DNA of 64,000 bases from a virus (lineage: Duplodnaviria > Heunggongvirae > Uroviricota > Caudoviricetes): IMG/VR virus record IMGVR_UViG_3300033153_011579; one strand, given 5' to 3'. A model generated the notes under the pieces. It was not told the DNA's origin. It saw only the letters and a program-made list of their open reading frames with translations, and did not search any database. Shown here one piece after another: positions 970-24,217 of the stretch. Numbering within the stretch: the first letter of the stretch is position 1; every line of letters begins with the position of its first letter. The position numbers were made by a program, and so were the translations under genes.

Positions 970-1139
970 GCGACAACCACATCTACGCCCCGGGGCGCTG
1001 CGTGAGCTGTGCACAGCGACGTTGGGACATCGAAGCCAAGAAGGCGGAGTGCGCGCTGGACCGTCCGGAATTCGATGCCGGTGACGACGGGAAGCGACGC
1101 GAGTGCTGGGAGTCGGGCAACGAGGACGAGGACCGGTAA
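966..1139 (+). CDS. Small Cys-containing protein (57 aa)
   Basis: ATG overlaps int stop (ATGA); SD AAGGAAG upstream; CVSC…C…C pattern. The listed 456..1139 ORF is only real from here. Confidence 0.5.
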   Translation: MSDNHIYAPGRCVSCAQRRWDIEAKKAECALDRPEFDAGDDGKRRECWESGNEDEDR

Positions 1140-1172
1140 GAGAGTGATGAATTCTCTGACACGGAGGGGACG

Positions 1173-1730
1173 ATGAAGGTCGATATTCCAGACAACGTGA
1201 TCGAAAATCTCGTCGACGAAAAGGTCAAACAGAAAATGCGGGAGGTCGGATTCGATCTCGTAAAGTCTCTGAAAGGCTGGTTAGACCAGATCGACACTGT
1301 TGGTGAACTGTCTGCCTGGTCTACGGTGACTTACTATTTCATAGATACTTATCATCGGTTTTTCGAATTGCGGTGGGGGGAGTTTGAGCTGGATGGGCAA
1401 GCCGTCCCTCCTAAAACAGAAGTTGTCTTCGATGCTGGTTTAGACTCTGACGGTTTCGGCTTGGTCAAGCTATCGTCCGGTGAGTATGGATATTCTCAAT
1501 GTGAAAAACCGTGGATTCGTGTGAAGCCGACCGTTCACCGTTACGGCCCCGAAGAGAACCAGGTCGTCCTTGAGTATGACGAGCCGTGGTGTGATGGCAA
1601 GTGCCGGGTTCGCGTCGAAGACGGTGAACATATAACCCTCTGGCAGGAAGAAGAATTTAAAAAAGACTCAGAGGAGTTTGATGAGCTACGACAGGCCTGG
1701 GAGTCGATCATGAAACCGCCGGAAAAGTGA
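1173..1730 (+). CDS. Hypothetical protein (185 aa)
   Basis: Preceded by junction cassette (GTAAGAGAGTGATGAATTCTCTGACACGGAGGGGACG-ATG). Confidence 0.7.
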   Translation: MKVDIPDNVIENLVDEKVKQKMREVGFDLVKSLKGWLDQIDTVGELSAWSTVTYYFIDTYHRFFELRWGEFELDGQAVPPKTEVVFDAGLDSDGFGLVKLSSGEYGYSQCEKPWIRVKPTVHRYGPEENQVVLEYDEPWCDGKCRVRVEDGEHITLWQEEEFKKDSEEFDELRQAWESIMKPPEK

Positions 1731-1769
1731 CTGTAAGGGAATGCGCAATTCTCTGACACGGAGGAGCGG

Positions 1770-2021
1770 ATGAGCTACGGAAGAACACCATACTACATCC
1801 TCAACATGATCAATTCGGACTGTGTTCACTTCTGGTGTGAGCTCGGAGAGGTTCTCGTGCCACAGCGCGCTGTCGACCAGTTTTGTGTCGTCCGCGTGCT
1901 GAACCCAGACGAGCTCATCCATGCTTTTCGCTGGTTCGAGGAACAGCGCCCGGACTGGGAGGACCTCCGCGAAGACTTTGTGGCAGCGCTCCGCAAAATA
2001 GCAGACGAGATAGAACGGTAA
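1770..2021 (+). CDS. Hypothetical protein (83 aa)
   Basis: Cassette 1732-1769 immediately upstream, SD GGAGG 8 nt before ATG. Confidence 0.7.
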   Translation: MSYGRTPYYILNMINSDCVHFWCELGEVLVPQRAVDQFCVVRVLNPDELIHAFRWFEEQRPDWEDLREDFVAALRKIADEIER

Positions 2022-2054
2022 GGGAATGCGGAATTCTCTGACACGGAGGAGACG

Positions 2055-2465
2055 ATGAACAAAGCAACCAAGGCACTCAAGACTCTCCGGGCTGTAAGTC
2101 GACCAGGTAGCCCGACGCGCCAGGCTGCCGTTCTAGGGTTGGCTGAAATTGAGAGGCTACGAAAGCAACGTGACGAAGCTCGACGTGACCACGCTGTTCC
2201 GGGGATGTACGCTCTCGGCTACGCGCTGTTCTACTTCCAGTTCAGTAACCGCGATCACGACTATGGAGATCAGGTCGGCCGCGTCCACGCTCTCTGTGAG
2301 CGCTGGGTGGATCTCCGGGCACGAGAGCACGCCGCGATGCTACAGGAGTTCGACCTCAACGAAGATCCAGACGACAAGAAGTGGGAAGCCTTCCTGCAGG
2401 GGTGGGCTCCAGAGTGGGACAAGCTCCTGGAAGACATCGACGACGAGTGCGAGAACCTGTGCTGA
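2055..2465 (+). CDS. Hypothetical protein (136 aa)
   Basis: Cassette 2018-2054 upstream. Confidence 0.7.
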   Translation: MNKATKALKTLRAVSRPGSPTRQAAVLGLAEIERLRKQRDEARRDHAVPGMYALGYALFYFQFSNRDHDYGDQVGRVHALCERWVDLRAREHAAMLQEFDLNEDPDDKKWEAFLQGWAPEWDKLLEDIDDECENLC

Positions 2466-2508
2466 GGGGCTGTAAGAGAATGCGGATTTTTCTGACACGG
2501 AGGAGTTG

Positions 2509-2712
2509 ATGGAGTATTTCTCGACACTGTTTAACATCATGCTCGGCGCGCTCGGTATCTTGGGACTCCTTGTTGGAGGGGGGATCTTTATTGTGGGCAT
2601 CGCGGCGACTATAGTGGAGGAAAAGGCTAGATTCTTGTTGCTGTGCCCGATTGGATTTTTGGCCGGGTGCAGCGGATTAGCCTGGTTCGTCACGGTGGTG
2701 AAGTATCTGTAA
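2509..2712 (+). CDS. Small membrane protein (67 aa, 2 TM)
   Basis: Cassette 2471-2508; ATG at 2509 (track start 2506 is TTG); hydrophobic GALGILGLLVGGGIFIVGIAATIV. Confidence 0.65.
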   Translation: MEYFSTLFNIMLGALGILGLLVGGGIFIVGIAATIVEEKARFLLLCPIGFLAGCSGLAWFVTVVKYL

Positions 2713-2745
2713 GAGAATGTAGAGTTCTCTGACGAGGAGCGGATT

Positions 2746-3075
2746 ATGACTGTCGAAGAAACAAGCGAAGAGCTGGCGCTGGAGGGACGATCGGTGGTCA
2801 TCGAGGTGACCCGCTTTCCCAAGGGCACATCCCGCGGCCGGGTGACATCGCTCGCCGTCGGCATCGACCCCGAGGTGAAGGAGGGGGACGAGGCCGTCGA
2901 TGTGTCTCCCGCCCTCGTGGTCGACGCGCTGATCTACGCCCTGAAGCTGAACTACGACGCTGAGAGCCAGCACGGATCGGACGAGACCGCCGAGGAGTAC
3001 GTCGAGGACGTGGCGCGGATCCTGCTGTCGCAGATCGAGAACGATGAGCCGAGCTCGCTCAGGAGGGTCCACTGA
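2746..3075 (+). CDS. Hypothetical acidic protein, paralogue copy 1 (109 aa)
   Basis: Cassette upstream; ~90% identical to the 5953..6282 product. Confidence 0.7.
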   Translation: MTVEETSEELALEGRSVVIEVTRFPKGTSRGRVTSLAVGIDPEVKEGDEAVDVSPALVVDALIYALKLNYDAESQHGSDETAEEYVEDVARILLSQIENDEPSSLRRVH

Positions 3076-3088
3076 CACGGAGAAGAAA

Positions 3089-3280
3089 ATGACTATGCTG
3101 ACCGCCTATATCGTTCTGGGGGTGCTCGTGCTGGGAGCTATCGGTACCGGTATCTGGGCCAAGCTCACTGGTGATCCGGTCCCTGTGATTCTTTGCGCCC
3201 TACTGATCGCGGCGGCGGCGGCGCTGTTGAACATCCCGTCGAGCAGGTTCGCCAAGTCCAAGAAGGAGCTCGACCGATGA
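3089..3280 (+). CDS. Small membrane protein (63 aa)
   Basis: Partial cassette CTGACACGGAGAAGAAA-ATG (no inverted repeat); two hydrophobic helices. Confidence 0.6.
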   Translation: MTMLTAYIVLGVLVLGAIGTGIWAKLTGDPVPVILCALLIAAAAALLNIPSSRFAKSKKELDR

Positions 3281-3519
3281 AAAGATTCAAACTTCACCAG
3301 CGAGTCCGCGTGACCGAGGGCGAGCTCGTCGGCCGATTCGGAGCCGTCTGGCGGTGTCGTCGAGCCGATGATGCGGCATGGATCGCGATGGACGAAGACA
3401 TCCCGGAGTCGCTGCGACAGTTTCCAGCAAACGACGCACACGGCCGCGGTAACCACGTGATCCTCTGGCCGGACCAATGCGAGAGGATCACCAAAGCGCC
3501 GAAGCTGAAGGCTGTGTGA
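3277..3519 (+). CDS. Hypothetical protein (80 aa)
   Basis: ATGA overlap with upstream stop; MKRFKLHQRVRVTEGE…. Confidence 0.55.
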   Translation: MKRFKLHQRVRVTEGELVGRFGAVWRCRRADDAAWIAMDEDIPESLRQFPANDAHGRGNHVILWPDQCERITKAPKLKAV

Positions 3520-3851
3520 TGATTCGAAACGGCGACAAACCAGGTGAGCGACGGTTAGCTCTTCCGATCCACTTCCGTGGGCCGACCAGGTGCCTCGGGG
3601 TGGAGGGGACCGTCGATGACGACTACAACGTGGTTCCAGTAGGTCGAGCTCGAGCTTGCGTGCTGAAGGACCTCTGCATCCGCTATCGGGACCGAGAAGA
3701 CTATGGACCGGCGACCCCCTGGTACTCCGAGTGTCCTTACGACTGGCAACGGATGATCTGTACGGAATATCAAACTTCGTGGAGAAATCGAGGGCCGGTG
3801 ATGGACCGTTTGGTAGACATCTACGCCGCGATGCCAGCGAGGGAGAAGTAG
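3519..3851 (+). CDS. Hypothetical protein (110 aa)
   Basis: TGATG overlap with upstream gene; Cys/Trp-containing. Confidence 0.55.
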   Translation: MIRNGDKPGERRLALPIHFRGPTRCLGVEGTVDDDYNVVPVGRARACVLKDLCIRYRDREDYGPATPWYSECPYDWQRMICTEYQTSWRNRGPVMDRLVDIYAAMPAREK

Positions 3852-3853
3852 TC

Positions 3854-4339
3854 TTGGTTGAAATCACACACGACCGCCTCGTGAAAGCTGCAGCTATCTG
3901 GCTCGGCCAGAAGCATCGAGTGGTCTCCACCGAGCTCGTCTGCAGTACCGTCTCAGAGAACGCCGATGCTATCGGATGGGACGGTTACGGCAGGTGCATG
4001 GTCATCGAGTGCAAGGTCAGCCGCTCAGATTTTCTCGCCAACAAGCACAAACCACACGAGATCGTCGGTGACTCCATGGGGAACGAGCGCTGGTTCATGA
4101 CACCACCTGGTCTTGTCGAGCCAAAGGAGTTGCCGCGCAGCCACGGGCTCCTCGAGTACACGCCCAGTGGCCACGGGTCCGGCTACTTCATCCGCAAGGT
4201 CAAGAAAGCTCGGCCGCGGAAGAGGACGGTCGACCGGCTTTGGAACGAGAACCGAACACTGGTCGCCATCGCAGGCCGTGCTCTCGAGGCCGCTTCGAGG
4301 CTCAAGCCGCTCTGGCTCGGTGACGGCGAGGACGAGTAA
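3854..4339 (+). CDS. Putative PD-(D/E)xK-family nuclease-like protein
   Basis: Motif …ADAIGWDGYGRCMVIECKVSRSDF… (D…ExK); probable TTG start at 3854 with SD AGGGAG 8 nt upstream; start uncertain. Confidence 0.4.
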   Translation: MVEITHDRLVKAAAIWLGQKHRVVSTELVCSTVSENADAIGWDGYGRCMVIECKVSRSDFLANKHKPHEIVGDSMGNERWFMTPPGLVEPKELPRSHGLLEYTPSGHGSGYFIRKVKKARPRKRTVDRLWNENRTLVAIAGRALEAASRLKPLWLGDGEDE

Positions 4340-4374
4340 GAGAATGCCGGATTCTATGACACGGAGGAGTGAAG

Positions 4375-4581
4375 ATGGGCGTGCGAACAAAAAAGTTGGC
4401 TGAATGGAAACACGCTGCCATCGAGGCGTTCTACCGACTAGATAGCCTCGTCAATGACAGCGAGTGTGACAACGCAGAGGAACCATACTCCGATTGGCAG
4501 CCGTGCGAGGATGGGTGCAACTACTGTGACGATCGCGAGGCGAGGGACAGGATCGCCCAGCTCATGGCCAAGGACCAATAG
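4375..4581 (+). CDS. Small Cys-rich protein (68 aa)
   Basis: Cassette 4337-4374 upstream; C…C…CNYCD. Confidence 0.65.
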   Translation: MGVRTKKLAEWKHAAIEAFYRLDSLVNDSECDNAEEPYSDWQPCEDGCNYCDDREARDRIAQLMAKDQ

Positions 4582-4620
4582 GCTGTAAGAGAGTGATAGA
4601 TTCTCTGACACGGAGGATAA

Positions 4621-4744
4621 GTGGATCGACGGCAAGTACAAGGAATCCGGCATGGACATCGATGGCAACCTCGACCGCGAAGTTGCGATCTTCCACCTGA
4701 CCGGTAAGGGGCGGGAGGCCGCGAAAAGCGATGAGGAAAAATGA
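4621..4744 (+). pseudogene. Cassette-associated ORF with apparent frame disruption
   Basis: Cassette positions a GTG at 4621, but that frame stops after 28 Arg-rich codons. The +1 frame (…KWIDGKYKESGMDIDGNLDREVAIFHLTGKGREAAKSDEEK*) is protein-like but lacks a start. Confidence 0.3.
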
Positions 4745-4845
4745 AAGAGACAATTGTCGAAATCATGTTTGGGTATCTGTATTTTGCGTTGGGTGGGGGT
4801 GCCGTCGCCTATGTGTGGTGGATGAGTAGCACTTTTGGAGGATGA
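4741..4845 (+). CDS. Small single-TM peptide (34 aa), not in ORF track
   Basis: ATG 4741, MKETIVEIMFGYLYFALGGGAVAYVWWMSSTFGG*; fills an otherwise non-coding gap. Confidence 0.45.
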   Translation: MKETIVEIMFGYLYFALGGGAVAYVWWMSSTFGG

Positions 4846-4846
4846 G

Positions 4847-5050
4847 ATGGACAACCCCGACCTGTACTGCGTGAAGTGCTCGATCGGACTTGGCTTCGGT
4901 CCGCGCGCAACCATCGACAAGAAGGATTACTGCAACGGCTGCGCTGTCTACTTGCTACGCGCCCGCGTGGCCGAACTAGAATCTCAACCGGCGCAGACGA
5001 TGCCTGTCAAACGCACCGTGCGCGAGGCGGTGAACGATGATGTTGATTAG
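4847..5050 (+). CDS. Small Cys-containing protein (67 aa)
   Basis: SD GGAGGA 5 nt upstream; shares a YLLRARVAELE(S/A)Q segment with the 6829..7152 product. Confidence 0.6.
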   Translation: MDNPDLYCVKCSIGLGFGPRATIDKKDYCNGCAVYLLRARVAELESQPAQTMPVKRTVREAVNDDVD

Positions 5051-5339
5051 AGCAATCGGCAGCTCCCTGCTCGCAGTGGCGAGCATGACTATCCGTTGGA
5101 TTGCGGCCGACCTTCTAAGGAGTAAAGGAAAACACATGAGATCAACAACAATAGAAAAGATGTGTCAGGCAGCATCGGTACTCGACCGGGAGAAGTTTGA
5201 TGCTCTCGCCGAAGACCTTTTCGACGAACTGGCGGCTTCTACGACTCGGATGTCAGCAGCTATTCACAATTCGTACTGTCCGAAGTGCCTCGAAAAACAA
5301 CTCATAATCGACGACCTGCGGATCGTCGATCCTGACTGA
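5037..5339 (+). CDS. Hypothetical protein (alternative start 5136)
   Basis: ATGATG overlapping upstream stop; internal ATG 5136 has the better SD (AAAGGAAAA). Confidence 0.4.
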   Translation: MMLIRAIGSSLLAVASMTIRWIAADLLRSKGKHMRSTTIEKMCQAASVLDREKFDALAEDLFDELAASTTRMSAAIHNSYCPKCLEKQLIIDDLRIVDPD

Positions 5340-5418
5340 TGAGGAATGACACGTTCCTTACGAAGAAAACGAATTTTGTAAGAGAACCCCAAGATTCTCT
5401 GACATGGAGGAGATAGTG

Positions 5419-5682
5419 ATGTTCGACGATTGGTCAACTTGGCAACTAGTACTGACCGGTGTCTTCTACTTTTTTCTGTGTATGCTGATCGGATTTCTTG
5501 CCACAGCCGTCCCAGCCTGGGTGCAGCTGTGGAGGGTCAAACAAGAATGTCGGAGTCGGGTAGCTCAAGCCAATCGAAGGTTTGATCTGTCTACTCGTGA
5601 TTTGTGTAAGAGAATGTCGGTTTCTCTGACACGGAGAAGAGAATGGGAACGGAAAAAGATCAAGACAACGTCAGGCACCTGA
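5419..5682 (+). CDS. Small membrane protein (87 aa)
   Basis: Hairpin-B plus cassette-A in tandem upstream (5343-5418); N-terminal TM; ORF reads through the next cassette. Confidence 0.55.
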   Translation: MFDDWSTWQLVLTGVFYFFLCMLIGFLATAVPAWVQLWRVKQECRSRVAQANRRFDLSTRDLCKRMSVSLTRRREWERKKIKTTSGT

Positions 5683-5945
5683 ACCAGGGTGAGCAGGCTT
5701 TTGCCGATCTGATCTCTGTCCTCTCCGACGGGAAGGTCTCCCGCGTCGTGGTGGCCTACTACTGCGAGGAGGACGAGGACGAGGAAGCTGGCTGGTCCTA
5801 CGTCCGGGCCTCGAGACCACCGAGCCCCATCGGTAGCGCCATCGTAGAGGATGTTGGAGCCGCGTCCTTGTTATCCTTGTACGTCAGAGACTGGTACGAC
5901 TCCGCCATGGCGACCGAGACAACCCACGAGGTGCCGCGGAAGTGA
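5643..5945 (+). CDS. Hypothetical acidic protein (100 aa)
   Basis: Cassette 5610-5642 upstream. Confidence 0.6.
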   Translation: MGTEKDQDNVRHLNQGEQAFADLISVLSDGKVSRVVVAYYCEEDEDEEAGWSYVRASRPPSPIGSAIVEDVGAASLLSLYVRDWYDSAMATETTHEVPRK

Positions 5946-5952
5946 GGACAAG

Positions 5953-6282
5953 ATGGCTGTTGAGGAAACAACTGAAGAGCTGGCCCTGGAGGGACGCTCG
6001 GTGGTCATCGAGGTGACCCGCTTTCCCAAGGGCACATCCCGCGGCCGGGTGACATCGCTAGCCGTCGGCATCGAGCCCGACGTGAAGAATGGGGGCGACC
6101 CCGTCGATGTGTCTCCGGCCCTCGTGGTCGACGCGCTGATCTACGCCCTGAAGCTGAACTACGACGCCGAGAGCCAGCACGGGTCAAACGAGACGGCCGA
6201 GGACTACGTCGAGGACGTGGCGCGGATCCTGCTGTCGCAGATCGAGAACGACGAGCCGAGCTCGCTCATGCGGGTTCACTGA
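5953..6282 (+). CDS. Hypothetical acidic protein, paralogue copy 2 (109 aa)
   Basis: SD GAGGA upstream; near-identical to the 2746..3075 product, including the downstream partial cassette. Confidence 0.7.
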   Translation: MAVEETTEELALEGRSVVIEVTRFPKGTSRGRVTSLAVGIEPDVKNGGDPVDVSPALVVDALIYALKLNYDAESQHGSNETAEDYVEDVARILLSQIENDEPSSLMRVH

Positions 6283-6295
6283 CACGGAGGGGAAG

Positions 6296-6493
6296 ATGAG
6301 CCTGTTTTTTACGACGACAATTCGCGAGGATGTTGAGATCGAGGTCGATGTGGAGTGCTCGAGGTGTGGAGCCGCTCTCACGGCAACATCCAGAAGCGAA
6401 CACATCGGCTCCCACGATGAAAACCACCGGCTGGTGATCCACCCGTGCACCACCTGCTACCCGGTTGGCGCGACGGATACCGAGAGCTCGTAA
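6296..6493 (+). CDS. Zn-ribbon small protein (65 aa)
   Basis: Partial cassette CACTGACACGGAGGGGAAG-ATG; CSRCG…CTTC. Confidence 0.6.
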   Translation: MSLFFTTTIREDVEIEVDVECSRCGAALTATSRSEHIGSHDENHRLVIHPCTTCYPVGATDTESS

Positions 6494-6529
6494 GAGAATG
6501 TGCGTTTCTCTGACACGGAGGAGTGGCAA

Positions 6530-6802
6530 ATGAATAAAGAGAAGAAACTCAAGAAGCTCGGGATCCCAGACAAGACCGTAACCTGGGAAGAGTTCAAGGA
6601 ACTCCCGCAAACGCGTGGTGAAGGGATCTCCTTTAAAGCGCAAGGTGTTGGGGACTGGAAGGGTGAGTGGTTCTGGTTTGAGTCGCTAGGGGTGGTTGAG
6701 GTCGACCGCGCCTTGGCCGATGGCGAGGTTATCAGAGGAATGAAGGTCAACGCTGGGAACTGGCACAGGCTTGTTGTCGTTCCTCATAATTTTCCTCGCT
6801 GA
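6530..6802 (+). CDS. Hypothetical protein (90 aa)
   Basis: Cassette 6484-6529 upstream. Confidence 0.6.
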   Translation: MNKEKKLKKLGIPDKTVTWEEFKELPQTRGEGISFKAQGVGDWKGEWFWFESLGVVEVDRALADGEVIRGMKVNAGNWHRLVVVPHNFPR

Positions 6803-6828
6803 CGACCTGTAAGAGAATGGAGCGTTCT

Positions 6829-7152: not shown

Positions 7153-7185
7153 GAGAATTTTACGTTCTCTGACACGGAGAAAAAG

Positions 7186-8650: not shown

Positions 8651-8683
8651 GAGAATTCAGGATTCTCTGACACGGAGGATGAG

Positions 8684-9052: not shown

Positions 9053-9091
9053 GAGAATTGAGAATTCTCTGACACGGAAAAGAGGAACTCA

Positions 9092-9349: not shown

Positions 9350-9382
9350 GAGAATTGGCGATTCTCTGACACGGAGAGGAAG

Positions 9383-9634
9383 ATGACCAGGCTCGAACAG
9401 TACCAAAAACTCCACGAGATCTTCCTCGTGAACAGGTTTTCGGACGTGTTGACCGAGGCTGAAGAAGACGACCTGCTCTACGCCCTGGACGCCGTTTGGT
9501 GGCAGATGACGAGTGCGGAGCACGCCGAAGCGGAGAAGGACACCTGGATGTGGAATCGGGTGCTGCGGGGATGGTTCGCGCACATCGATCCCGCTGGCGG
9601 AACGAACAACCCAGTGATGAAGTGGAGCTTGTAA
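9383..9634 (+). CDS. Hypothetical protein (83 aa)
   Basis: Cassette upstream. Confidence 0.65.
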   Translation: MTRLEQYQKLHEIFLVNRFSDVLTEAEEDDLLYALDAVWWQMTSAEHAEAEKDTWMWNRVLRGWFAHIDPAGGTNNPVMKWSL

Positions 9635-9669
9635 GAGAACTGACAATTCCCTTACACGAGGAGGAGAGG

Positions 9670-9945
9670 ATGAGGCGGAATCGCAGAACAATGGTGGCCA
9701 CAAGCACGATAGGTTCGTGGATGAGCCGAGTGTATAGACTGGAAGCTGAGAACGAAAAGCTTCGTACTGATCTTCTCTTCGCCAAAGCAAAGATTAAGGC
9801 GATCCGGGTACGTATTGAGATGGTCGATGATGGGGAGAGCTGTTACCAGTCACACGACGCGGTACCAGACATTCTCAACATTCTGCGTGGGGGGACGCTT
9901 TGGACAGGAAGTCCACAGTACGCCGCCGTCAAAAAACGCCTGTAA
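9670..9945 (+). CDS. Hypothetical coiled-coil protein (91 aa)
   Basis: Cassette variant (ATTCCCTTACACGAGGAGGAGAGG-ATG); start relocated to ATG 9670. Confidence 0.6.
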   Translation: MRRNRRTMVATSTIGSWMSRVYRLEAENEKLRTDLLFAKAKIKAIRVRIEMVDDGESCYQSHDAVPDILNILRGGTLWTGSPQYAAVKKRL

Positions 9946-9982
9946 GAGAACCGACTGACTCTATTACACGAGGAGATAATAG

Positions 9983-10465
9983 ATGCACGGGCTAGGAAGA
10001 AGAGGAAACCGCCGGAAGAAACGCCTGAAGAAACATCGAGGCCGTACTCCTGCTAGAGTTTCGGCATCCAGCAAGGTCTACAACACTACCTCCAGGACCG
10101 TCGTCAAGACTGCTGCGCCCAGCACCGTCGTCACGTTCGACGACGTAGCTGATCTGGCCGAGGCGACCCTCGACGAGGAGAACGTGACCGCGCTGTTCAT
10201 GCGGTACGACAATAACATCAGGCCAACGCTCTTCTACACTGCCTACGCGGAAACTCCGTCTGGGCGCGTCTTCCTCCAGGCAGTCCATGTACTGTCGAAA
10301 GATGAGATCTACGAGAACCCAAAACACCCGCTGCCCTGTTACAGGGACGGCAAGGACATGAGGTGCCCCTATCCGCAGGAGCACATCATCGACAGGGCCG
10401 TTGAGTACTGGGAGTCCCGAGGGATTGACGTCTACGAGGGCACGGTGGAGATGAAGATTTTGTAA
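9983..10465 (+). CDS. Hypothetical protein (160 aa)
   Basis: Cassette upstream. Confidence 0.65.
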   Translation: MHGLGRRGNRRKKRLKKHRGRTPARVSASSKVYNTTSRTVVKTAAPSTVVTFDDVADLAEATLDEENVTALFMRYDNNIRPTLFYTAYAETPSGRVFLQAVHVLSKDEIYENPKHPLPCYRDGKDMRCPYPQEHIIDRAVEYWESRGIDVYEGTVEMKIL

Positions 10466-10499
10466 GAGAACCTTCTATTCCCTGACATGGAGGATTGAG

Positions 10500-10733
10500 A
10501 TGAAAACGGGAGAACGCGAACTGTTCAAGGTAACCGGACGACCTGGTCGCCGTATCTGGCGCAAACAAGCCGGAGCGCGAGGGTACCGACCCATCTGGAC
10601 CTCCGACTACGTTGAGGAGGTTGACGGGAAGTTCTTCTGCACGATTCGGAGTGAGTCCGAGAACGACCTGCCGATGGAGCAGCACGATAACCTTCAAGAC
10701 GCGCTCGAGTGGTTGATGAGGGATCGGACGTAA
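10500..10733 (+). CDS. Hypothetical protein (77 aa)
   Basis: Cassette upstream. Confidence 0.65.
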   Translation: MKTGERELFKVTGRPGRRIWRKQAGARGYRPIWTSDYVEEVDGKFFCTIRSESENDLPMEQHDNLQDALEWLMRDRT

Positions 10734-10766
10734 GAGAATCAACGATTCTCTGACATGGAGGACAGG

Positions 10767-10961
10767 ATGAAACGCACGCTGTTGACCGAGATCGACTTTG
10801 ACCGTCAGAGCTGTCGGGTCATCGAGGCGGAGATCATCAAGTGCAACACCTGTAAGGGTAGCGGTTGGAAAGAGGTTTCGACGCACCGCGGAAACTACAG
10901 ACGCCGCTGTGCTCAGTGCCACGGCACAGGCAAGGTGCTGGTGGGACCGAAGGTTCGATGA
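10767..10961 (+). CDS. Zn-ribbon protein (64 aa)
   Basis: Cassette upstream; CNTCKGSG…CAQCHGTG. Confidence 0.65.
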   Translation: MKRTLLTEIDFDRQSCRVIEAEIIKCNTCKGSGWKEVSTHRGNYRRRCAQCHGTGKVLVGPKVR

Positions 10962-11002
10962 CTGTAAGAGAACAGACGATTCTCTGACACGAGGAGAGAA
11001 GG

Positions 11003-11254
11003 ATGAATTTCAGTAACGAGCAAATGACAGAGTGGCTGTCGGAGGTTCCGGAAGCTACCAGCGTACGCTGCGTGGCTATCCCTCCGTACATCAGTAAAGA
11101 GATGAAGGAGCGGCCAGTGATTCCGTGGGATCTGCTTACCCGAGAAGTCAACAACAAGATAGGTGATGGTGACCGCGTACTCGGGATTCGTGCTGCGGGG
11201 GCCAACTCCTACGGCAATTACTGGATCATCATTTGGGTTGGCAACAAAGAGTGA
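11003..11254 (+). CDS. Hypothetical protein (83 aa)
   Basis: Cassette upstream. Confidence 0.65.
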   Translation: MNFSNEQMTEWLSEVPEATSVRCVAIPPYISKEMKERPVIPWDLLTREVNNKIGDGDRVLGIRAAGANSYGNYWIIIWVGNKE

Positions 11255-11293
11255 GCTTGTAAGAGAAACTAATATTCTCTGACGGAGGAGAGC

Positions 11294-11527
11294 ATGGACA
11301 ACGATACCAAAAGACTGTGTGGCAACTGCTTCTGGTTTGATCAAGAGCTCTGTCGACGACTGCCACCGCGCATGATTGACCAGGTAGATCTTTATGAAAA
11401 AGATAGTGAGTTCAACACCTGGAATGCCAGTTACGCAGACGACTACACCTCTTGGCCAGTTGTAGAAGAGAAAGCCTGGTGCGGAGAATGGCGATCGAAG
11501 GAAGACGGCTGGCCCGTCGGTAAGTAA
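11294..11527 (+). CDS. Hypothetical protein (77 aa)
   Basis: Cassette upstream. Confidence 0.65.
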   Translation: MDNDTKRLCGNCFWFDQELCRRLPPRMIDQVDLYEKDSEFNTWNASYADDYTSWPVVEEKAWCGEWRSKEDGWPVGK

Positions 11528-11559
11528 GAGAATCAAACATTCTCTGACACGAGGAGAAG

Positions 11560-11673
11560 ATGATGGAAATTCTAATTTTTTGGCTGTGCTTTTGTGGACT
11601 CGGAGCCGTTGGTATATTGGTAGCGTCCTTGGTGATCCTCAGTGAGGAACGTCAACGAAACGGTCGCCAGTAA
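11560..11673 (+). CDS. Small single-TM peptide (37 aa), not in ORF track
   Basis: Cassette 11526-11559 upstream; MMEILIFWLCFCGLGAVGILVASLVILSEERQRNGRQ*. Confidence 0.55.
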   Translation: MMEILIFWLCFCGLGAVGILVASLVILSEERQRNGRQ

Positions 11674-11714
11674 GAGAATCAGCACGTTCCCTGAAAGGAA
11701 GATTGGAGAACAAA

Positions 11715-11927
11715 ATGTCGAAGAACACGGTCACGCAGCACGTTTTGGTTGATTCCCATGTTGAGTGCTTCCCTGAGGAATTCCTCGAAGCACTTCTCGC
11801 AGTTTGTCCGGCTCCCTTGGCACCGGACAGTCTTAAACAACTCCGTGACATAGGGAGAGTCCAGTTGAGCCTCTGGCTTTCCCCGGAGGACTTGAAGCGC
11901 TGGACAGGTAAAGCGCCAGGGGAATGA
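11715..11927 (+). CDS. Hypothetical protein (70 aa)
   Basis: Hybrid A/B motif upstream (GTAAGAGAATCAGCACGTTCCCTG). Confidence 0.55.
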   Translation: MSKNTVTQHVLVDSHVECFPEEFLEALLAVCPAPLAPDSLKQLRDIGRVQLSLWLSPEDLKRWTGKAPGE

Positions 11928-11976
11928 CACTTTCCCTGTGCCTACACAACAACCGCCTAGTGGGGCAAGGAGTAGG

Positions 11977-12330
11977 ATGATGACAGAGCATACATTGACC
12001 GTTGGTGGAAGCGAGGTCGTGGTTTCGAGTAACCCTGTTTCAAGGGACCTTGTCGGCTCGGACCGCAGCTTCGGAGATGAACGCGCGCACCCATGTCCGA
12101 ACTGTAGCAAAAATAGTCTGCGCTACCATTTCCTCGACTACAGGCCTGCGCTGTCGTGGGCCTGCGTCGAGTGTGGCTATGCTGAGCACCCGCCGATTGA
12201 AAAGTTGGTTGCCGATGGGTACTCCCCGCAGAAGGTAGAGGAGGATTGGTCGACCTGCATTTACCCAAAGGAGTGGATGCTTTACTCCCCGCTTGAGCGG
12301 TTAGCGTCACCACAAACACGAAAGGATTAG
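11977..12330 (+). CDS. Zn-ribbon protein (117 aa)
   Basis: Hairpin-B at 11929, SD AAGGAG; CPNC…CVECG. Confidence 0.55.
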   Translation: MMTEHTLTVGGSEVVVSSNPVSRDLVGSDRSFGDERAHPCPNCSKNSLRYHFLDYRPALSWACVECGYAEHPPIEKLVADGYSPQKVEEDWSTCIYPKEWMLYSPLERLASPQTRKD

Positions 12331-12334
12331 AACG

Positions 12335-12685
12335 ATGGGTTTGTTTTCACCACCAGGCCAAGCTCCAGATCTCCGAGAGGCGAAAGATGTTAGAGTTATC
12401 GTCACCCTATGCAAGGACGAAGAACCAGGTGATGGATATGTCCGAACACAGATAACCGCTCTCGATGAACTCGAGGAGGGTGAAGAGGGTTTAAATATTA
12501 ACGGAGACAACGTCTTTGAGGCACTGGTTTACGCGCTGTACCACCACTTTGTAAACGAGCACGAGGTTGGGCATTCTTGTTGCCTTACTCATTTTATCGA
12601 AGAGATCACAGACCTACTGGAGCGTGTCAACGAGACTGACGGAAACGAAAAGGTCAGTCGGAGTTCTGAAGAACACACACATTAA
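12335..12685 (+). CDS. Hypothetical acidic protein (116 aa)
   Basis: SD AAAGGA upstream. Confidence 0.55.
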   Translation: MGLFSPPGQAPDLREAKDVRVIVTLCKDEEPGDGYVRTQITALDELEEGEEGLNINGDNVFEALVYALYHHFVNEHEVGHSCCLTHFIEEITDLLERVNETDGNEKVSRSSEEHTH

Positions 12686-12794
12686 TAAGGGTTATTGCAT
12701 CAGCTGCGGACCGTCGACCCTGTATGAGGAATGACACGTTCCCTGGTGGGAGAACGTCGAACTGGAGTGAGAGGAGTTTGAATGTTTAAAGCAC

Positions 12795-12943
12795 GTCGAG
12801 TTCTCCGAGCGCGCGGTGAGTGTGGACGGGGGCCTGCGTTGGGTTTTTGTGACGAATTCTCCTTAGCAGGCCTTCTACGTGGAGTGCTTCAACCATTCCA
12901 TCGACCTACTCGACCCACTCACCGCGCGCTCGGAGAACTCGAC
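12795..12943. repeat. 28-bp perfect inverted repeat with a 93-bp spacer in a non-coding gap
   Basis: GTCGAGTTCTCCGAGCGCGCGGTGAGTG (12795-12822) and its exact reverse complement at 12916-12943; an inner IR GGCCTGC/GCAGGCC lies in the loop. Confidence 0.85.
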
Positions 12944-12971
12944 GGCACGCAGTCGGGGGAAGGAGAAAAGA

Positions 12972-13181
12972 ATGCGAAAATATCGATTTCAGCACGATGA
13001 GGATGGTGACGTGCTGTGGGTCTACATCGCCGGTAACTCCGCGTACCCAGGGGAGCACCGCTTCGATCCACCAGAAGTTTTGGAGGCCTACATCGGTTAC
13101 CTTCGAGCATGTAAAGGTGATCAACTTGATTCTGATGTAGTTATCGCCTGGAAGGACAGTGCTTGGGGTCCGGATGTCTGA
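12972..13181 (+). CDS. Hypothetical protein (69 aa)
   Basis: SD GGAAGGAGAAAAG upstream; the region 12686-12971 upstream is non-coding and structured. Confidence 0.5.
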   Translation: MRKYRFQHDEDGDVLWVYIAGNSAYPGEHRFDPPEVLEAYIGYLRACKGDQLDSDVVIAWKDSAWGPDV

Positions 13182-13232
13182 TGACACGTTCCCTGGTACC
13201 CCTATGCCCAAACACTAGGCAGGAGGAATGAG

Positions 13233-13412
13233 ATGTCTGAAAAGAAAGCTGTGGTTCAACGTGTTGTCATCCACGAACTCTTGGATGCAGGTGTGGTGGC
13301 GATCGAAGGACGTGATCTTGTGTTCGAGTCCCCCTGGGACAAGGGCTCAGAGGCGATGATTGCTTTGATGAAGAAAGGCCTCGTCAAAGACGTGGTCCGG
13401 GACAGGGAATGA
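13233..13412 (+). CDS. Hypothetical protein (59 aa), not in ORF track
   Basis: Hairpin-B at 13188, SD AGGAGGAATGAG-ATG; MSEKKAVVQRVVIHELLDAGVVAIEGRDLVFESPWDKGSEAMIALMKKGLVKDVVRDRE*. Confidence 0.5.
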   Translation: MSEKKAVVQRVVIHELLDAGVVAIEGRDLVFESPWDKGSEAMIALMKKGLVKDVVRDRE

Positions 13413-13437
13413 CACGTCCCCTGAAAGGAGAAGCCCG

Positions 13438-13713
13438 ATGGGTCAAACAACATCCGACAATCCAGGTGGAGTGAAGTCGCTCTTCGAAGATAACAACTCA
13501 CAAAAAGCTACTGCCTCCACGCTCGCCGGATACCTCGTCGAAGATGGTGCTTGGATGGTATTGCCAGATGGGGACCGCGAGATCACTATTGTGCGGCACA
13601 GAGACTATGGCACGATCATGTATCTCATTGATGGTCCAGGCGAGGATATAAGAAGCGGCGTAGTAAAAACGGTGCGAGAACTCGCTGACGCCATCGCCGT
13701 TGGTGGGGAATGA
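13438..13713 (+). CDS. Hypothetical protein (91 aa)
   Basis: Hairpin-B 13408 plus SD AAAGGAGAAG upstream. Confidence 0.6.
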   Translation: MGQTTSDNPGGVKSLFEDNNSQKATASTLAGYLVEDGAWMVLPDGDREITIVRHRDYGTIMYLIDGPGEDIRSGVVKTVRELADAIAVGGE

Positions 13714-13774
13714 CACGTTCCCTAGGAACTTGAGCTTGTAAGAGAATCTCGCATTCTCTGACACGGAGGAAAAA

Positions 13775-13954
13775 ATGGACGAACACATGAGATATTTAGG
13801 CTGCCTGAAACTACTTGAGGATTGCTCACCTTACGTACCGGAAGAGATTCGTGAGGGTATCGAGATGGCTCACGACGATGCTGTAGAGGCCAGCAACGGG
13901 ACCTTGCGGGCTCGCAGTGTGCTCGATCGACGAGAGATCGAGGTGGTGACGTAA
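13775..13954 (+). CDS. Hypothetical protein (59 aa), not in ORF track
   Basis: Tandem hairpin-B plus cassette-A upstream (13711-13774). Confidence 0.5.
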   Translation: MDEHMRYLGCLKLLEDCSPYVPEEIREGIEMAHDDAVEASNGTLRARSVLDRREIEVVT

Positions 13955-13985
13955 GAGAATCCGCACGTTCTCTTACACGGAGGAA

Positions 13986-14189
13986 ATGATGGGTAAAGAT
14001 GTGAGGACCAAGACATTCGCTATGATGTTTCGGGAGCGCTGCGTGATCATGCGGGATGCTTTCGACCGCCGTGACGTAGAGGGCTTTGCTACTGCTCTCA
14101 AGGACGTTGAGCGCCTGATGCGAGAGCACGCCGAGGGGTGCGGCTGCTCACAATGCCGAGAGACGCTGAAGATCATGAATGAGGTGTAA
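13986..14189 (+). CDS. Cys-containing protein (67 aa)
   Basis: Cassette upstream; CGCSQC. Confidence 0.6.
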   Translation: MMGKDVRTKTFAMMFRERCVIMRDAFDRRDVEGFATALKDVERLMREHAEGCGCSQCRETLKIMNEV

Positions 14190-14223
14190 GAGAATACACA
14201 CGTCCTTTAACACGGAGGAAACG

Positions 14224-14460
14224 ATGAGTACTGTTCTGGATAATGACCAAAAATTGATGGTAATTCTGGCGGTTGTGGTGGCACTCTTCCTGTTAATTTT
14301 GGCTGGTGGGAAGCTTATTGGTGATGTTTTGTCACCCCCAACACCCCAAGAGGACTGTATGAACCAGGCCCAGCAGCTGGACAGCGAGGAGTCTGAGAAA
14401 GAAGCCTACTACAAGTGTCTTGAGTCTTTAGGGCTGGAAGATCCTAAAAAGGCTTTGTAA
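14224..14460 (+). CDS. Small membrane protein (78 aa)
   Basis: Cassette upstream; TM LMVILAVVVALFLLILAGG. Confidence 0.65.
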   Translation: MSTVLDNDQKLMVILAVVVALFLLILAGGKLIGDVLSPPTPQEDCMNQAQQLDSEESEKEAYYKCLESLGLEDPKKAL

Positions 14461-14492
14461 GAGAATCTTCCGTTCTCTGACACGGAGAAGAA

Positions 14493-15164
14493 GTGAAGCT
14501 GAGAAAACCACCAATCCTCTGCTCGATCTGCGGAGACCCAATCGTCACGAAGTGGCGAGACAAGCGAAGGCAGACCTGCGGGTCTCCCGAGTGCCGGGTG
14601 GCGATCCTGCTCGAGCCGCACCTGGGCGACCGGACTCGACCGTACGCCGGCGGAGCTCGCGGGAAGTGGAAAAAAAGCACCAAGCGCGGGTCGGTGGTGC
14701 GCGACCTCGCGAAGTGGGGTATTGGGCTTTCCGAGGAGATCTCCACGAACCTCGCCGACGCGGCCGACCAGGTCTTTAAGAGAACCAAAACCGCGAAGGC
14801 GGTCGGGACGAAGAAGGACGAGCGCGGTGCGGACCACCCGGAGGCCCAGGCTCAGATCTGGGGCTTCCTCGCTCGTAGGAGCGCGCTCATAAAAGTCGTC
14901 AGCAAGGACGACGGCGAGCCCGGGTTGCTCATTCTCAAAACCAAAAGCGAGAGTGTCCCGCACGCCATCCGCCGTCTCCTGAGCATCACCCCGGTCTCCG
15001 AGAACCTGTGCGATGTCTTCATGGCGTGGAGCTGTCCTTGCCCTCAGGACTCTCGAGTGATTTACGAAACGATCGACGACCTGCCCAAGACGGTAGGCTA
15101 TCACGACCCGTGCCCGCGTTGCGGTGCGGCACCACTGGAGGTGAAAAATGTTCCTAAAAAATAG
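14493..15164 (+). CDS. Zn-finger protein (223 aa, GTG start)
   Basis: Cassette upstream; CSICG…CGSPEC …CPRCG. Confidence 0.6.
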   Translation: MKLRKPPILCSICGDPIVTKWRDKRRQTCGSPECRVAILLEPHLGDRTRPYAGGARGKWKKSTKRGSVVRDLAKWGIGLSEEISTNLADAADQVFKRTKTAKAVGTKKDERGADHPEAQAQIWGFLARRSALIKVVSKDDGEPGLLILKTKSESVPHAIRRLLSITPVSENLCDVFMAWSCPCPQDSRVIYETIDDLPKTVGYHDPCPRCGAAPLEVKNVPKK

Positions 15165-24215: not shown

Positions 24216-24217
24216 CG

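What the first reader, a model, noticed from the sequence alone, without database searches (positions are those of the whole stretch)
1136..14495. Array of ~45 mini-genes stitched together by a conserved stop-hairpin-SD-start cassette
- Almost every intergenic junction in the first 15 kb carries the same ~38-nt unit: upstream TAA stop, 7-bp inverted repeat AGAGAAT/ATTCTCT with a 4-6 nt loop, TGACACGGAGGAG, 3-5 nt, then ATG.
- The sequence itself is conserved, not only the fold, and the unit is AT-rich in a high-GC genome.
- It fixes stop, SD and start in one module. Possible roles: phage-specific promoter or operator, RNase III-type processing or attenuator hairpin, or a recombination boundary that lets small ORFs be shuffled, as with the T4 PeSL 'mobile nano-elements'.
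- The two partial copies at 3072 and 6284 sit downstream of the two duplicated genes, consistent with cassette-mediated duplication.
Basis: seen in the sequence. Interest (0 to 1): 0.9.

Follow-up and report, generated by a model that had tools for sequence, protein, structure and literature searches.

The report
Repeated palindrome-plus-ribosome-site gene junction module
An uncultivated phage-like genome joins about 45 tiny early genes with some 30 copies of one 40-base unit (stop codon, palindrome, ribosome-binding site, start codon); the unit resembles a regulator-binding site reused as a standard gene connector, and unrelated genes have been swapped at it.

Summary
Between 966 and 14,495 lie 45 small co-directional ORFs (28-185 aa). 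Twenty-nine junctions carry the full unit TGTAAGAGAAT-N5/6-ATTCTCTGACA-CGGAGGAG-N3-5-ATG. Two carry only the SD half and six carry a variant (GGGAAT-GACAC-GTTCCCT). None occurs elsewhere in the window. It is not a terminator, an RNase III site or a sigma-70 promoter.

Three results reshape the interpretation:
1. The same inner palindrome abuts the -35 box of the early promoter in this phage and in all four known relatives (int-like protein about 60% identical), including relatives without cassettes.
2. The arms are conserved as sequence, with no compensatory changes.
3. The array lies between an intact tyrosine-recombinase gene and a catalytically dead paralogue. It holds 0, 2, 6, about 9 or 45 ORFs in the five genomes. 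One relative has six cassettes, three with the same loop as window copies, flanked by unrelated ORFs.

Best reading: a portable junction module, made of a DNA-recognised palindrome (operator/stoperator-like) fused to a ribosome-binding site, which also marks where ORFs are exchanged. The closest analogues are Cluster K SAS/ESAS, Cluster A stoperators and T4 PeSLs. It is a new variant of a known kind, and the mechanism is unproven.

The parts
82..969 (+). Tyrosine-recombinase-like gene (family A1), 5' flank of the array
   Evidence: PHROG integrase 2.4e-11 and Pfam Phage_integrase. HRFRHW...RH...YY motifs are invariant in 5 relatives and align to P2 integrase box II.
966..14460 (+). Array of 45 small co-directional ORFs (28-185 aa, median 83)
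   Evidence: Curated ORF chain, all translations open. 16 PHROG families hit, almost no Pfam.
1135..1175 (+). Cassette 1 (full)
   Evidence: TAA in left arm is the stop of 966-1139; ATG 1173.
1732..1772 (+). Cassette 2 (full, AGGGAAT left arm)
2017..2057 (+). Cassette 3 (full, AGGGAAT left arm)
   Evidence: TAA in arm is the stop.
2471..2511 (+). Cassette 4 (full)
2708..2748 (+). Cassette 5 (full)
   Evidence: TAA in arm is the stop.
3073..3091 (+). Partial copy (TGACACGGAGAAG-N-ATG, no palindrome); TGA is the stop of 2746-3075
4335..4377 (+). Cassette 6 (full)
4584..4623 (+). Cassette 7 (full; downstream start uncertain, GTG 4621)
5343..5360 (+). Variant palindrome GGAATGACACGTTCC (motif 2)
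5377..5421 (+). Cassette 8 (full, 6-nt loop)
5605..5645 (+). Cassette 9 (full); upstream ORF 5419-5682 reads through it in the third frame
6280..6298 (+). Partial copy (TGACACGGAGGGG-N-ATG); TGA is the stop of 5953-6282
6489..6532 (+). Cassette 10 (full)
6808..6831 (+). Cassette 11 (degenerate: start codon inside right arm, no SD)
7148..7188 (+). Cassette 12 (full)
7678..7718 (+). Cassette 13 (full)
8372..8413 (+). Cassette 14 (full, weak SD)
8646..8686 (+). Cassette 15 (full)
9048..9094 (+). Cassette 16 (full, GTG start)
9345..9385 (+). Cassette 17 (full)
9630..9672 (+). Cassette 18 (TTCCCTTACAC type); 88% identical over 59 nt to L008:11040-11098, same loop TGACA
9941..9985 (+). Cassette 19 (diverged right arm)
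10461..10502 (+). Cassette 20 (TTCCCT right arm)
10729..10769 (+). Cassette 21 (loop CAACG, shared with L008:10412)
10963..11005 (+). Cassette 22 (full)
11258..11296 (+). Cassette 23 (full)
11523..11565 (+). Cassette 24 (full)
11669..11717 (+). Cassette 25 (intermediate between the main type and motif 2: GTTCCCTGAAAGGAAG)
11921..11938 (+). Variant palindrome (motif 2); TGA in the loop is the stop of 11715-11927
12728..12745 (+). Variant palindrome (motif 2)
13178..13195 (+). Variant palindrome, left arm missing
13406..13440 (+). Variant palindrome (motif 2) plus GAAAGGAG SD plus ATG 13438
13707..13724 (+). Variant palindrome (motif 2), followed 14 nt later by cassette 26
13737..13777 (+). Cassette 26; 90% identical over 41 nt to L008:11996-12036 (loop CTCGC / CTCGCC)
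13950..13991 (+). Cassette 27; same 6-nt loop CCGCAC as L008:12288
14185..14226 (+). Cassette 28 (diverged copy of cassette 27)
14456..14495 (+). Cassette 29, feeds the first conserved downstream gene (GTG 14493)
2746..3092 (+). Duplicated block, copy 1 (ORF plus SD-half copy)
   Evidence: 91.6% identical over 347 nt to 5953-6299.
5953..6299 (+). Duplicated block, copy 2
   Evidence: homologue in relative L007:6741-7058, upstream of its int-like gene.
14493..15528 (+). Two conserved genes 3' of the array (223 aa zinc-ribbon-like, 126 aa)
   Evidence: Homologues directly follow the array in all four relatives.
15528..16487 (+). Paralogue of the recombinase (family A2) without the HxxR and Tyr catalytic motifs; 3' flank
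   Evidence: BLASTP 1e-7 to 1e-8 to A1 members. hhalign probability 96%, E 4e-9. Alignment.

Best explanation
The unit is a portable gene-junction module with two fused halves.

- The 3' half (CGGAGGAG, 3-5 nt, ATG) is an ordinary strong ribosome-binding site.
- The 5' half is a 27-bp palindrome: 10-11-bp arms around a centre of 5-6 nt that differs between copies. I read it as a DNA recognition site for a dimeric phage protein. It is the same site that sits against the -35 box of the early promoter.

Repeated at about 30 junctions of one long early operon, the site would let one protein act on the promoter and all along the array. This could be a shut-off or road-block, as with operators and stoperators. 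The likeliest binders are the two conserved tyrosine-recombinase-fold proteins that bracket the array, one intact and one catalytically dead.

Because the same 40 bases recur between otherwise unrelated ORFs, the module also supplies the homology at which ORFs are inserted, duplicated and replaced. Each newcomer is delivered with a stop, an SD and a start.

Shown: the repeat, its conservation in a diverged relative, the promoter copy, the variable array and the cassette-bounded mosaicism.
Inferred: protein binding on DNA, the identity of the binder and the regulatory outcome.
For: 1. Real and confined to the array.
2. The array follows a conserved sigma-70-type promoter: TTGACC-17-TATGAT at L001:4242-4270, and TTGACA-18-TAnnnT in four relatives. 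There is no excess of promoters or terminators inside the array.
3. AGGGAAT-N4-6-ATTCCCT (ATTCTCT in this phage) abuts the -35 in all 5 genomes, including L012 and L007, which have no full cassette. The array contains the intermediate arm variants AGGGAAT and TTCCCT, and motif 2.
4. There is high information in both arms and none in the centre. Departures are not compensated, and the measures equal the shuffled controls. Non-pairs (A.C among them) are at least as frequent as G.U. This is the pattern of protein half-sites, not of a structure-only RNA.
5. Relative L008 (int-like 58% aa, 70% nt identity) carries six cassettes with the same consensus, so the sequence is under selection.
6. Homology between the genomes starts at TGTAAG and ends at the ATG. 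Three of six L008 inner loops are found exactly in the window (expected 0.083, P=3.5e-5). The ORF between two shared cassettes is unrelated in the two genomes (no BLASTP alignment at E<=100).
7. The array holds 0, 2, 6, about 9 or 45 ORFs between conserved flanks.
8. The flanks are an intact Tyr recombinase and a dead paralogue.
9. There is precedent for a site present at both a promoter and in intergenic spaces (PMC9283540) and for cassette-mediated shuffling (PMC2839356).
Against: - No binding protein is identified, and no HTH or RHH protein was found in the array.
- Half-site spacing varies: 5 or 6 nt within a genome and 4-6 nt among the promoter copies. This is awkward for a rigid dimer and easy for a hairpin.
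- The palindrome is welded to the stop codon and to the SD, which a DNA operator does not need.
- A second, unrelated hairpin-plus-RBS cassette occurs in another operon. This hints at an RNA-level logic common to both.
- An operator model does not by itself explain why loop sequences are shared between genomes.
- Only the inner 7 bp of the arms are shared with the promoter copy.
- Five contigs of the same phage from three samples are collinear, so no ongoing rearrangement is seen.
Confidence: 0.42

Rival explanations
1. RNA-level module. The palindrome acts as an mRNA hairpin placed directly 5' of the SD. It would either insulate the SD from upstream coding sequence or from nucleases, or act as a translational operator. 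A phage protein binding it could then switch about 30 early genes off or on together, as T4 RegA or the MS2 coat protein do.
For: - The hairpin abuts the SD, and the stop codon lies in its 5' arm.
- Predicted stems are -7 to -9 kcal/mol.
- The right arm plus G can instead pair with CGGAGGA (-5.7 kcal/mol). Predicted SD accessibility falls from 0.45 to 0.25 when the left arm is destroyed.
- Loop length is flexible.
- A second hairpin-plus-RBS cassette family exists in another operon.
- Each copy would benefit its own downstream gene directly.
Against: - There is no covariation for either helix, and the observed values equal the shuffled controls.
- Non-pairs (A.C among them) are at least as common as G.U.
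- A conserved stem sequence with a free loop is the reverse of usual RNA-protein recognition.
- The promoter-proximal copy lies upstream of the -35, so it is not in that mRNA.
- There is no Rfam match.
Confidence: 0.25
2. Site-specific recombination sites. The palindromes are core sites (10-bp arms, 7-8-bp central region if the core arms are AGAGAA/TTCTCT) for the adjacent tyrosine recombinase, helped by its dead paralogue. Different central regions within a genome block self-deletion. Identical central regions in co-infecting relatives allow slot-by-slot cassette exchange.
For: - The geometry fits tyrosine-recombinase core sites.
- The intact recombinase and its paralogue bracket the array in all five genomes.
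- The 29 loops in the window are nearly all different, yet 3 of 6 L008 loops recur exactly in the window.
- An unrelated ORF lies between two matched sites.
- One conserved site occurs in every relative.
Against: - L012 has 6 array ORFs and no cassette, yet keeps both genes.
- Cassettes do not travel with either neighbouring ORF. Orthologous ORFs carry different cassettes, and the same cassette is found with different ORFs.
- Mixed spacer lengths occur within one genome.
- No structural variants are seen in five contigs from three samples.
- The distinctness of loops within the genome is no greater than random 5-mers would give.
- The fusion to the stop and the SD is not explained.
Confidence: 0.14
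3. Phage-specific promoter. Each cassette is recognised by the phage-encoded sigma factor, so every mini-gene has its own promoter, as in T4 early PeSLs.
For: - A sigma-70-family gene (regions 2 and 4) lies just upstream of the operon (L001:3433-4107).
- T4 shows that repeated promoters before small early genes exist (PMC2839356).
- The cassette contains CTGACA, a near -35 hexamer.
Against: - There is no conserved element 16-18 nt downstream of CTGACA, and nothing is conserved past the ATG.
- Sigma-70-like sites in the array are at chance level (4 found against 5.2 expected).
- The 39 nt from the first base to the ATG cannot hold -35, spacer, -10 and an SD-containing leader. A transcript started there would lack the conserved SD.
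- A palindrome is not expected of a promoter.
Confidence: 0.05
4. Transcription terminator or attenuator, or an RNase III processing hairpin, between cistrons.
For: An inverted repeat lies directly after the stop codons.
Against: - There is no U tract, and the stem is AU-rich and weak.
- The stem is at most 11 bp with a mismatch, well below the roughly two helical turns RNase III uses (established knowledge).
- Thirty terminators in one operon would silence it.
- The motif is absent from 185,579 reference genomes.
Confidence: 0.03

Closest known systems
Start-associated sequences and extended SAS (SAS/ESAS) of Cluster K mycobacteriophages (PMC3203893; PMC12699233)
   Same: - A conserved SD-containing block lies a few nt before mostly ATG starts.
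- It is often preceded by an imperfect inverted repeat with a variable spacer.
- The upstream stop codon sometimes falls inside the motif.
- It is confined to the non-structural part of the genome and found in one orientation.
- It is associated with genes of different families.
- The inverted-repeat departures are not compensated, so a DNA-binding role was proposed. The function is still unknown.
   Different: - The sequence is unrelated (GGGATAGGAGCCC versus TGACACGGAGGAG).
- The repeats are 17 bp with a 4-13 nt spacer, versus 10-11 bp with 5-6 nt.
- There are 11-19 copies spread over half a genome, versus about 30 in 13 kb at two thirds of consecutive junctions.
- No promoter-proximal copy and no bracketing recombinase pair is reported for Cluster K.
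- The genomes are unrelated.
Operators and stoperators of Cluster A mycobacteriophages (L5 gp71; PMC9283540)
   Same: One short site occurs at the early promoter and again in more than 20 short intergenic spaces of the same transcription unit.
   Different: - Stoperators are 13-bp asymmetric sites bound by a monomer and depend on orientation. Here the site is a 27-bp palindrome fused to an SD.
- Binding and elongation block are untested here.
- Stoperators are spread genome-wide, whereas this site is confined to one array.
PeSL cassettes of T4-like phages (PMC2839356; PMC4122927)
   Same: - A composite unit runs from the upstream stop codon through a stem-loop to the SD and start codon.
- It is concentrated next to ORFans in hyperplastic regions.
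- Insertions, deletions and replacements between relatives are bounded by the cassettes.
   Different: - PeSLs are about 100 bp and contain a strong sigma-70 early promoter and a terminating stem-loop.
- This unit is about 40 bp, with no promoter and no terminator features.
- A recombinase pair brackets this array, and none is known for PeSLs.
Integron cassette arrays and Xer-site (pdif) modules
   Same: Small promoterless ORFs lie in one orientation behind a single promoter. They are separated by imperfect palindromes, next to a tyrosine recombinase gene, and the array size is highly variable.
   Different: - The sites are simple 27-bp palindromes, not attC (57-141 bp, R/L boxes, GTTRRRY).
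- They do not travel with an ORF.
- The recombinase is co-directional and is not IntI-like.
- No recombination products have been seen.

Membership tests
Cluster K SAS/ESAS | 13-bp sequence GGGATAGGAGCCC (up to 2 deviations) 3-7 bp upstream of the start codon | tested here: not met
   The block here is TGACACGGAGGAG. The position relative to the start is the same, but the sequence differs.
Cluster K SAS/ESAS | Imperfect inverted repeat with variable spacer immediately upstream of the SAS; departures not compensated | tested here: met
   10-11-bp arms, 5-6-nt spacer, no covariation. The size differs from the 17-bp ESAS repeats.
Cluster K SAS/ESAS | Carried by Cluster K mycobacteriophage genomes | tested here: not met
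   No nucleotide match to 50,697 phage records. The only protein match is a PurA-like hit below 36% identity.
Cluster A operator/stoperator system | Same site at the early promoter and in many short intergenic spaces | tested here: met
   The palindrome abuts the -35 in 5 of 5 genomes, and 29+6 intergenic copies are present.
Cluster A operator/stoperator system | 13-14-bp asymmetric site bound by a monomeric repressor, orientation-dependent | tested here: not met
   The site is a near-perfect palindrome.
Cluster A operator/stoperator system | Repressor binding blocks initiation and elongation | not testable with these tools
   Needs EMSA and in vivo transcription assays.
T4-type PeSL | Sigma-70-like early promoter (-35 and -10) inside the cassette | tested here: not met
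   Promoter-like sites are at chance level, there is no conserved -10, and the unit is too short.
T4-type PeSL | Stem-loop acting as terminator or attenuator | tested here: inconclusive
   A stem-loop is present (-7 to -9 kcal/mol) but without a U tract. Activity was not testable.
T4-type PeSL | Upstream stop at the 5' end, SD and start at the 3' end | tested here: met
T4-type PeSL | ORFan insertions, deletions and replacements between relatives bounded by cassettes | tested here: met
   (one informative relative, L008).
T4-type PeSL | Mini-circles formed by cassette-cassette recombination | not testable with these tools
   Needs inverse PCR or read-level analysis. The assembled contigs are collinear.
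Integron | attC sites (57-141 bp, paired R/L boxes, GTTRRRY core) | tested here: not met
   The site is a 27-bp simple palindrome, with GTAAGAG in place of GTTRRRY.
Integron | Each recombination site belongs to, and moves with, its ORF | tested here: not met
   The same cassette has unrelated ORFs on both sides, and homologous ORFs carry different cassettes or none.
Integron | IntI-type integrase divergent from attI/Pc | tested here: not met
   The recombinase is co-directional, about 1.3 kb downstream of the promoter. NCBIfam gives only weak XerA/XerC-type hits.
Tyrosine-recombinase core site (Xer/dif-like) | Inverted binding arms around a 6-8-bp central region | tested here: met
   AGAGAA-N7/8-TTCTCT, with arms extending to 10 bp.
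Tyrosine-recombinase core site (Xer/dif-like) | Cognate recombinase with an intact R..HxxR..H/W..Y active site | tested here: met
   The A1 family keeps HRFRHW...RH...YY. The A2 paralogue has lost these residues.
Tyrosine-recombinase core site (Xer/dif-like) | Recombination products between sites | tested here: inconclusive
   There is no structural variation in 5 contigs from 3 samples. Comparative mosaicism exists but does not show the mechanism.
Intrinsic terminator | GC-rich stem followed by a U run | tested here: not met
RNase III processing site | About 20 bp of double-stranded RNA | tested here: not met
   At most 11 bp with one mismatch.

The most novel reading that the evidence does not exclude
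The array is a natural recombinase-mediated cassette-exchange system. About 30 core sites share arms but carry individual 'bar-code' spacers, and are served by an active tyrosine recombinase and its catalytically dead paralogue at the two ends of the array. Unlike spacers keep the array stable within a genome. Like spacers in co-infecting relatives let single ORF slots be swapped, and each swapped ORF arrives with its own stop, RBS and start. The dead paralogue could double as the array-wide repressor.
Probability: 0.12. Interest if true: 0.9.

Novelty: new variant of a known kind. Interest (0 to 1): 0.6.

Why it matters
Repeated junction motifs in phage accessory regions (SAS/ESAS, stoperators, PeSLs) are known, but their mechanisms are only partly understood, and that of SAS/ESAS not at all. 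This lineage offers an unusually clean case:
- One 40-nt unit sits at two thirds of 45 consecutive gene junctions.
- A founder copy lies at the early promoter in every relative.
- Array size ranges from 0 to 45 ORFs between fixed flanks.
- An active/dead recombinase pair brackets the array.
- Cassettes, loops included, outlast the genes they separate.

The case makes two questions directly testable. How do phages accumulate and co-regulate large sets of small host-takeover or anti-defence genes? And is a regulator-binding site, a recombination site or an RNA element the organising principle?

The module is also a compact natural connector (stop, insulating palindrome, strong RBS) of possible use in synthetic operons.

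Tried and rejected
- **Motif searches in public collections.** There was no match in IMG/VR or GTDB genomes. The three metagenome hits (L004-L006) are one coding sequence of a low-GC acetyltransferase and are chance matches. The three IMG/VR hits to TTCCCTTACACGGAGGA (L016-L018) lack the palindrome. L016 has no tblastx similarity to the window; the other two were not compared. I treated all three as chance.
- **Relatives by protein.** There are none in IMG/VR or GTDB. Only five lineage members exist in 5.8 billion proteins.
- **Rfam and tRNA.** Nothing found.
- **Covariation.** There is none for the hairpin or for the alternative right-arm:SD helix. The SD-sequestering switch remains only a thermodynamic possibility.
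- **Sigma-70 promoter with CTGACA as the -35.** Rejected.
- **Population variation.** Five contigs from three samples are collinear.
- **Structure of the dead paralogue.** The model was too poor to use (pLDDT 49).
- **RHH/HTH regulators in the array.** None found at Pfam E<=0.01.
- **Motif 2 as a separate element.** Rejected. It is the G-C arm variant of the same palindrome.
- **Structural-gene annotation to name the virus.** There were no PHROG hits for 8 large ORFs, so 'phage' rests on accessory-gene hits.

Full report
**Observation.** The + strand from 966 to 14,460 carries 45 small ORFs (28-185 aa, median 83) with raised third-position GC. They follow a tyrosine-recombinase-like gene (82-969).
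- The pattern TGACACGGAGGAG (up to 2 mismatches) occurs 25 times against 2.8 expected, 22 of them on the + strand between 1157 and 14490.
- The pattern AGAGAA-N7-TTCTCTGACAC (up to 3 mismatches) gives 46 hits against 0.11 expected. That is 23 sites, each seen on both strands because the element is palindromic, and none lies outside 1139-14483.
- Curation gives 29 full cassettes, two SD-only copies (3073, 6280) and six copies of GGGAAT-GACAC-GTTCCCT. The last group is the same palindrome with a G-C pair at one arm position.
- The consensus is TGTAAGAGAAT-N5(6)-ATTCTCTGACA-CGGAGGAG-N3-5-ATG.
- The TAA in the left arm is the true stop of the upstream ORF in 19 of 29 copies, and the most common TAA-to-ATG distance is 33 nt.
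- Cassette GC is 39.5%, against 56% locally.

**What it is not.**
- Sigma-70-like sites and terminator-like sites in the array are at shuffle level.
- Nothing is conserved beyond the ATG, so CTGACA has no partner -10.
- The 39 nt from the first conserved base to the ATG cannot hold a promoter plus an SD-bearing leader.
- The stems are weak (-7 to -9 kcal/mol), AU-rich and without a U run. At no more than 11 bp they are far short of an RNase III substrate.
- Rfam has no match.
- The motif is absent from 185,579 reference genomes and from IMG/VR. The few hits in large collections are chance. It is therefore not a host element.

**Context.**
- The window is part of a JGI metagenome contig. Other contigs of the same phage from three samples are identical or differ by 1-3 SNPs and are collinear.
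- L001 extends 5.4 kb upstream and shows a sigma-70-family gene, then a regulatory region, then a canonical promoter (TTGACC-17-TATGAT) that heads the operon containing the array.
- Only four relatives exist in the protein collection, with an int-like protein 58-62% identical.
- In all of them the int-like gene and a conserved trio of genes bracket a variable segment (window 14493-15164, 15148-15528, 15528-16487). The segment holds 0 ORFs in L010, 2 in L007, 6 in L012, about 9 in L008 and 45 in the window.
- The last gene of the trio is a distant paralogue of the recombinase (BLASTP 1e-7 to 1e-8; hhalign probability 96%). It has lost the HxxR and tyrosine motifs that the first gene keeps.

**Key comparative results.**
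1. L008 carries six cassettes with the same consensus, although its backbone is only 70% identical at nucleotide level and nothing else exceeds about 85%. L010 has one diverged copy, L007 only the SD half, and L012 none.
2. In all five genomes a palindrome lies directly against the -35 box of the early promoter. It is AGGGAAT-N4-6-ATTCCCT in the relatives, and the window phage has ATTCTCT as its right arm. The array contains the intermediate arm variants.
3. On 36 aligned cassettes the arms pair in 83% of cells, but this equals the shuffled control. Compensated changes are no more frequent than chance, and non-pairs (A.C among them) are at least as common as G.U. An alternative helix between the right arm and the SD is thermodynamically possible, and in silico loss of the left arm lowers SD accessibility from 0.45 to 0.25. 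That helix has no covariation support either.
4. Between the window and L008, similarity begins at TGTAAG and ends at the ATG.
5. The 29 inner loops of the window are almost all different, yet three of six L008 loops recur exactly (CAACG, TGACA, CCGCAC) and a fourth differs by one base. The expectation is 0.083 (P=3.5e-5).
6. Two shared cassettes are adjacent in both genomes, but the ORF between them is unrelated (no BLASTP alignment at E<=100). Homologous ORFs occur with different cassettes or with none.
7. The internal duplication (2746-3092 versus 5953-6299) runs from start codon to next start codon.

**Interpretation.** The 3' half is a normal strong RBS. I read the 5' half as a protein recognition site on DNA, for these reasons:
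- Its arms are conserved as sequence, and its centre is not conserved between copies.
- Departures are uncompensated.
- The same inner palindrome is kept next to the early promoter in every relative, where it is not part of an SD-bearing leader.

The presence of one site at a promoter and at many intergenic positions of the same transcription unit parallels the operator/stoperator arrangement of Cluster A mycobacteriophages (PMC9283540). The stop-inverted repeat-SD-start architecture parallels the SAS/ESAS of Cluster K, whose authors also favoured DNA binding because departures are not compensated (PMC3203893). The function of SAS/ESAS is still open (PMC12699233). The cassette-bounded mosaicism parallels PeSLs (PMC2839356, PMC4122927), but without their promoter and terminator.

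The binder is unknown. The conserved recombinase-fold pair is the obvious candidate, because such proteins bind inverted arms around a 6-8-bp centre.

**Weaknesses.**
- Variable half-site spacing, the weld to the stop and the SD, and a second unrelated hairpin-plus-RBS cassette in the leftward operon keep an RNA-level role alive (0.25).
- The shared loop bar-codes and the bracketing recombinases keep a site-specific exchange mechanism alive (0.14). Against it, cassette-free arrays exist, no variants were observed, and cassettes are independent of their ORFs.

I put the DNA-recognised junction module at 0.42. The evolutionary role as an exchange boundary is better supported than any biochemical role.

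**Verdict.** The feature is real and selected. It is a new variant of a known kind of phage intergenic cassette and is moderately to highly interesting. The genome is an uncultivated, poorly annotated phage-like lineage: the large ORFs lack PHROG hits, while the accessory genes have phage-family hits.

Noticed in passing
window 18598-18618, 18862-18882, 19216-19236, 19422-19442 (- strand): A second, unrelated junction cassette occurs in the leftward operon. It reads: stop, GCCGG-N5/6-CCGGC hairpin, AGAAAGAGAGCGGAAA, ATG. There are four copies (0 expected). One copy changes both sides of a stem pair (G.U to C-G).
   Followed up: partly
window 20510-20525 (- strand); 17597-18598 (- strand): A perfect sigma-54-type element, TGGCAC-N5-TTGCA, lies about 15 nt upstream of an ATG at 20494. 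The same leftward block encodes a receiver-domain protein. A single site is weak statistically (1.3 expected at up to 1 mismatch).
   Followed up: partly
L001:3433-4107 and L001:4100-4270 (upstream of the window); equivalent regions in L007, L008, L010, L012: There is a phage-encoded sigma-70-family factor. The conserved regulatory region has 5-6 copies of TTTCCCGTG/TTTTCCGTG (one lies between -35 and -10) and a TGTGCACA-A-TGTGCACA element, ahead of the early promoter in all five genomes.
   Followed up: partly
L008:9849-10232: The relative encodes a ribosomal protein S12/S23-family protein (Pfam 1.5e-35) between the int-like gene and its cassette array.
   Followed up: partly
window 26259-27368 (- strand): A PurA/PurZ-like adenylosuccinate synthetase is present (PHROG '2-aminooxy adenylosuccinate synthetase' 1e-51; 33-35% identical to Rhizobium and Cluster C mycobacteriophage genes). 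Whether the genome uses a modified base was not examined.
   Followed up: no
window 16917-17095; L008:3235-3322: There are tandem GTGTCGGT/GTATCGGT repeats (about 180 nt) inside an ORF, probably a Thr-Asp-type repeat. A similar stretch (75% identical) occurs in the relative.
   Followed up: no
window 5419-5682: This ORF is in the one reading frame that the cassette does not close (the TAA and TGA of the cassette occupy the other two frames). It reads through cassette 9 and overlaps the next gene by 40 nt.
   Followed up: partly
L007:3870-6035; first gene leaders in L007, L008, L010, L012: Other repeated start-associated strings occur in the lineage. CACCCCGCCGAAAGGGGG-N-ATG (3 copies) and CACCGACAGCGAAGG (2 copies) are found in L007. 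GCGACGAAAGGAG-N6-8-ATG follows promoters in all relatives.
   Followed up: no
L008:5869-7059 (- strand); window 23469-24611 (- strand): An AcrVA2-like protein is encoded divergently from the early promoter in the relative. A DUF5131/radical-SAM-like phage protein is present in the window.
   Followed up: no
L003 end (window 2041): One metagenome contig of the same phage ends inside cassette 3. The repeats probably break short-read assemblies, which may hide further cassette-rich relatives.
   Followed up: no
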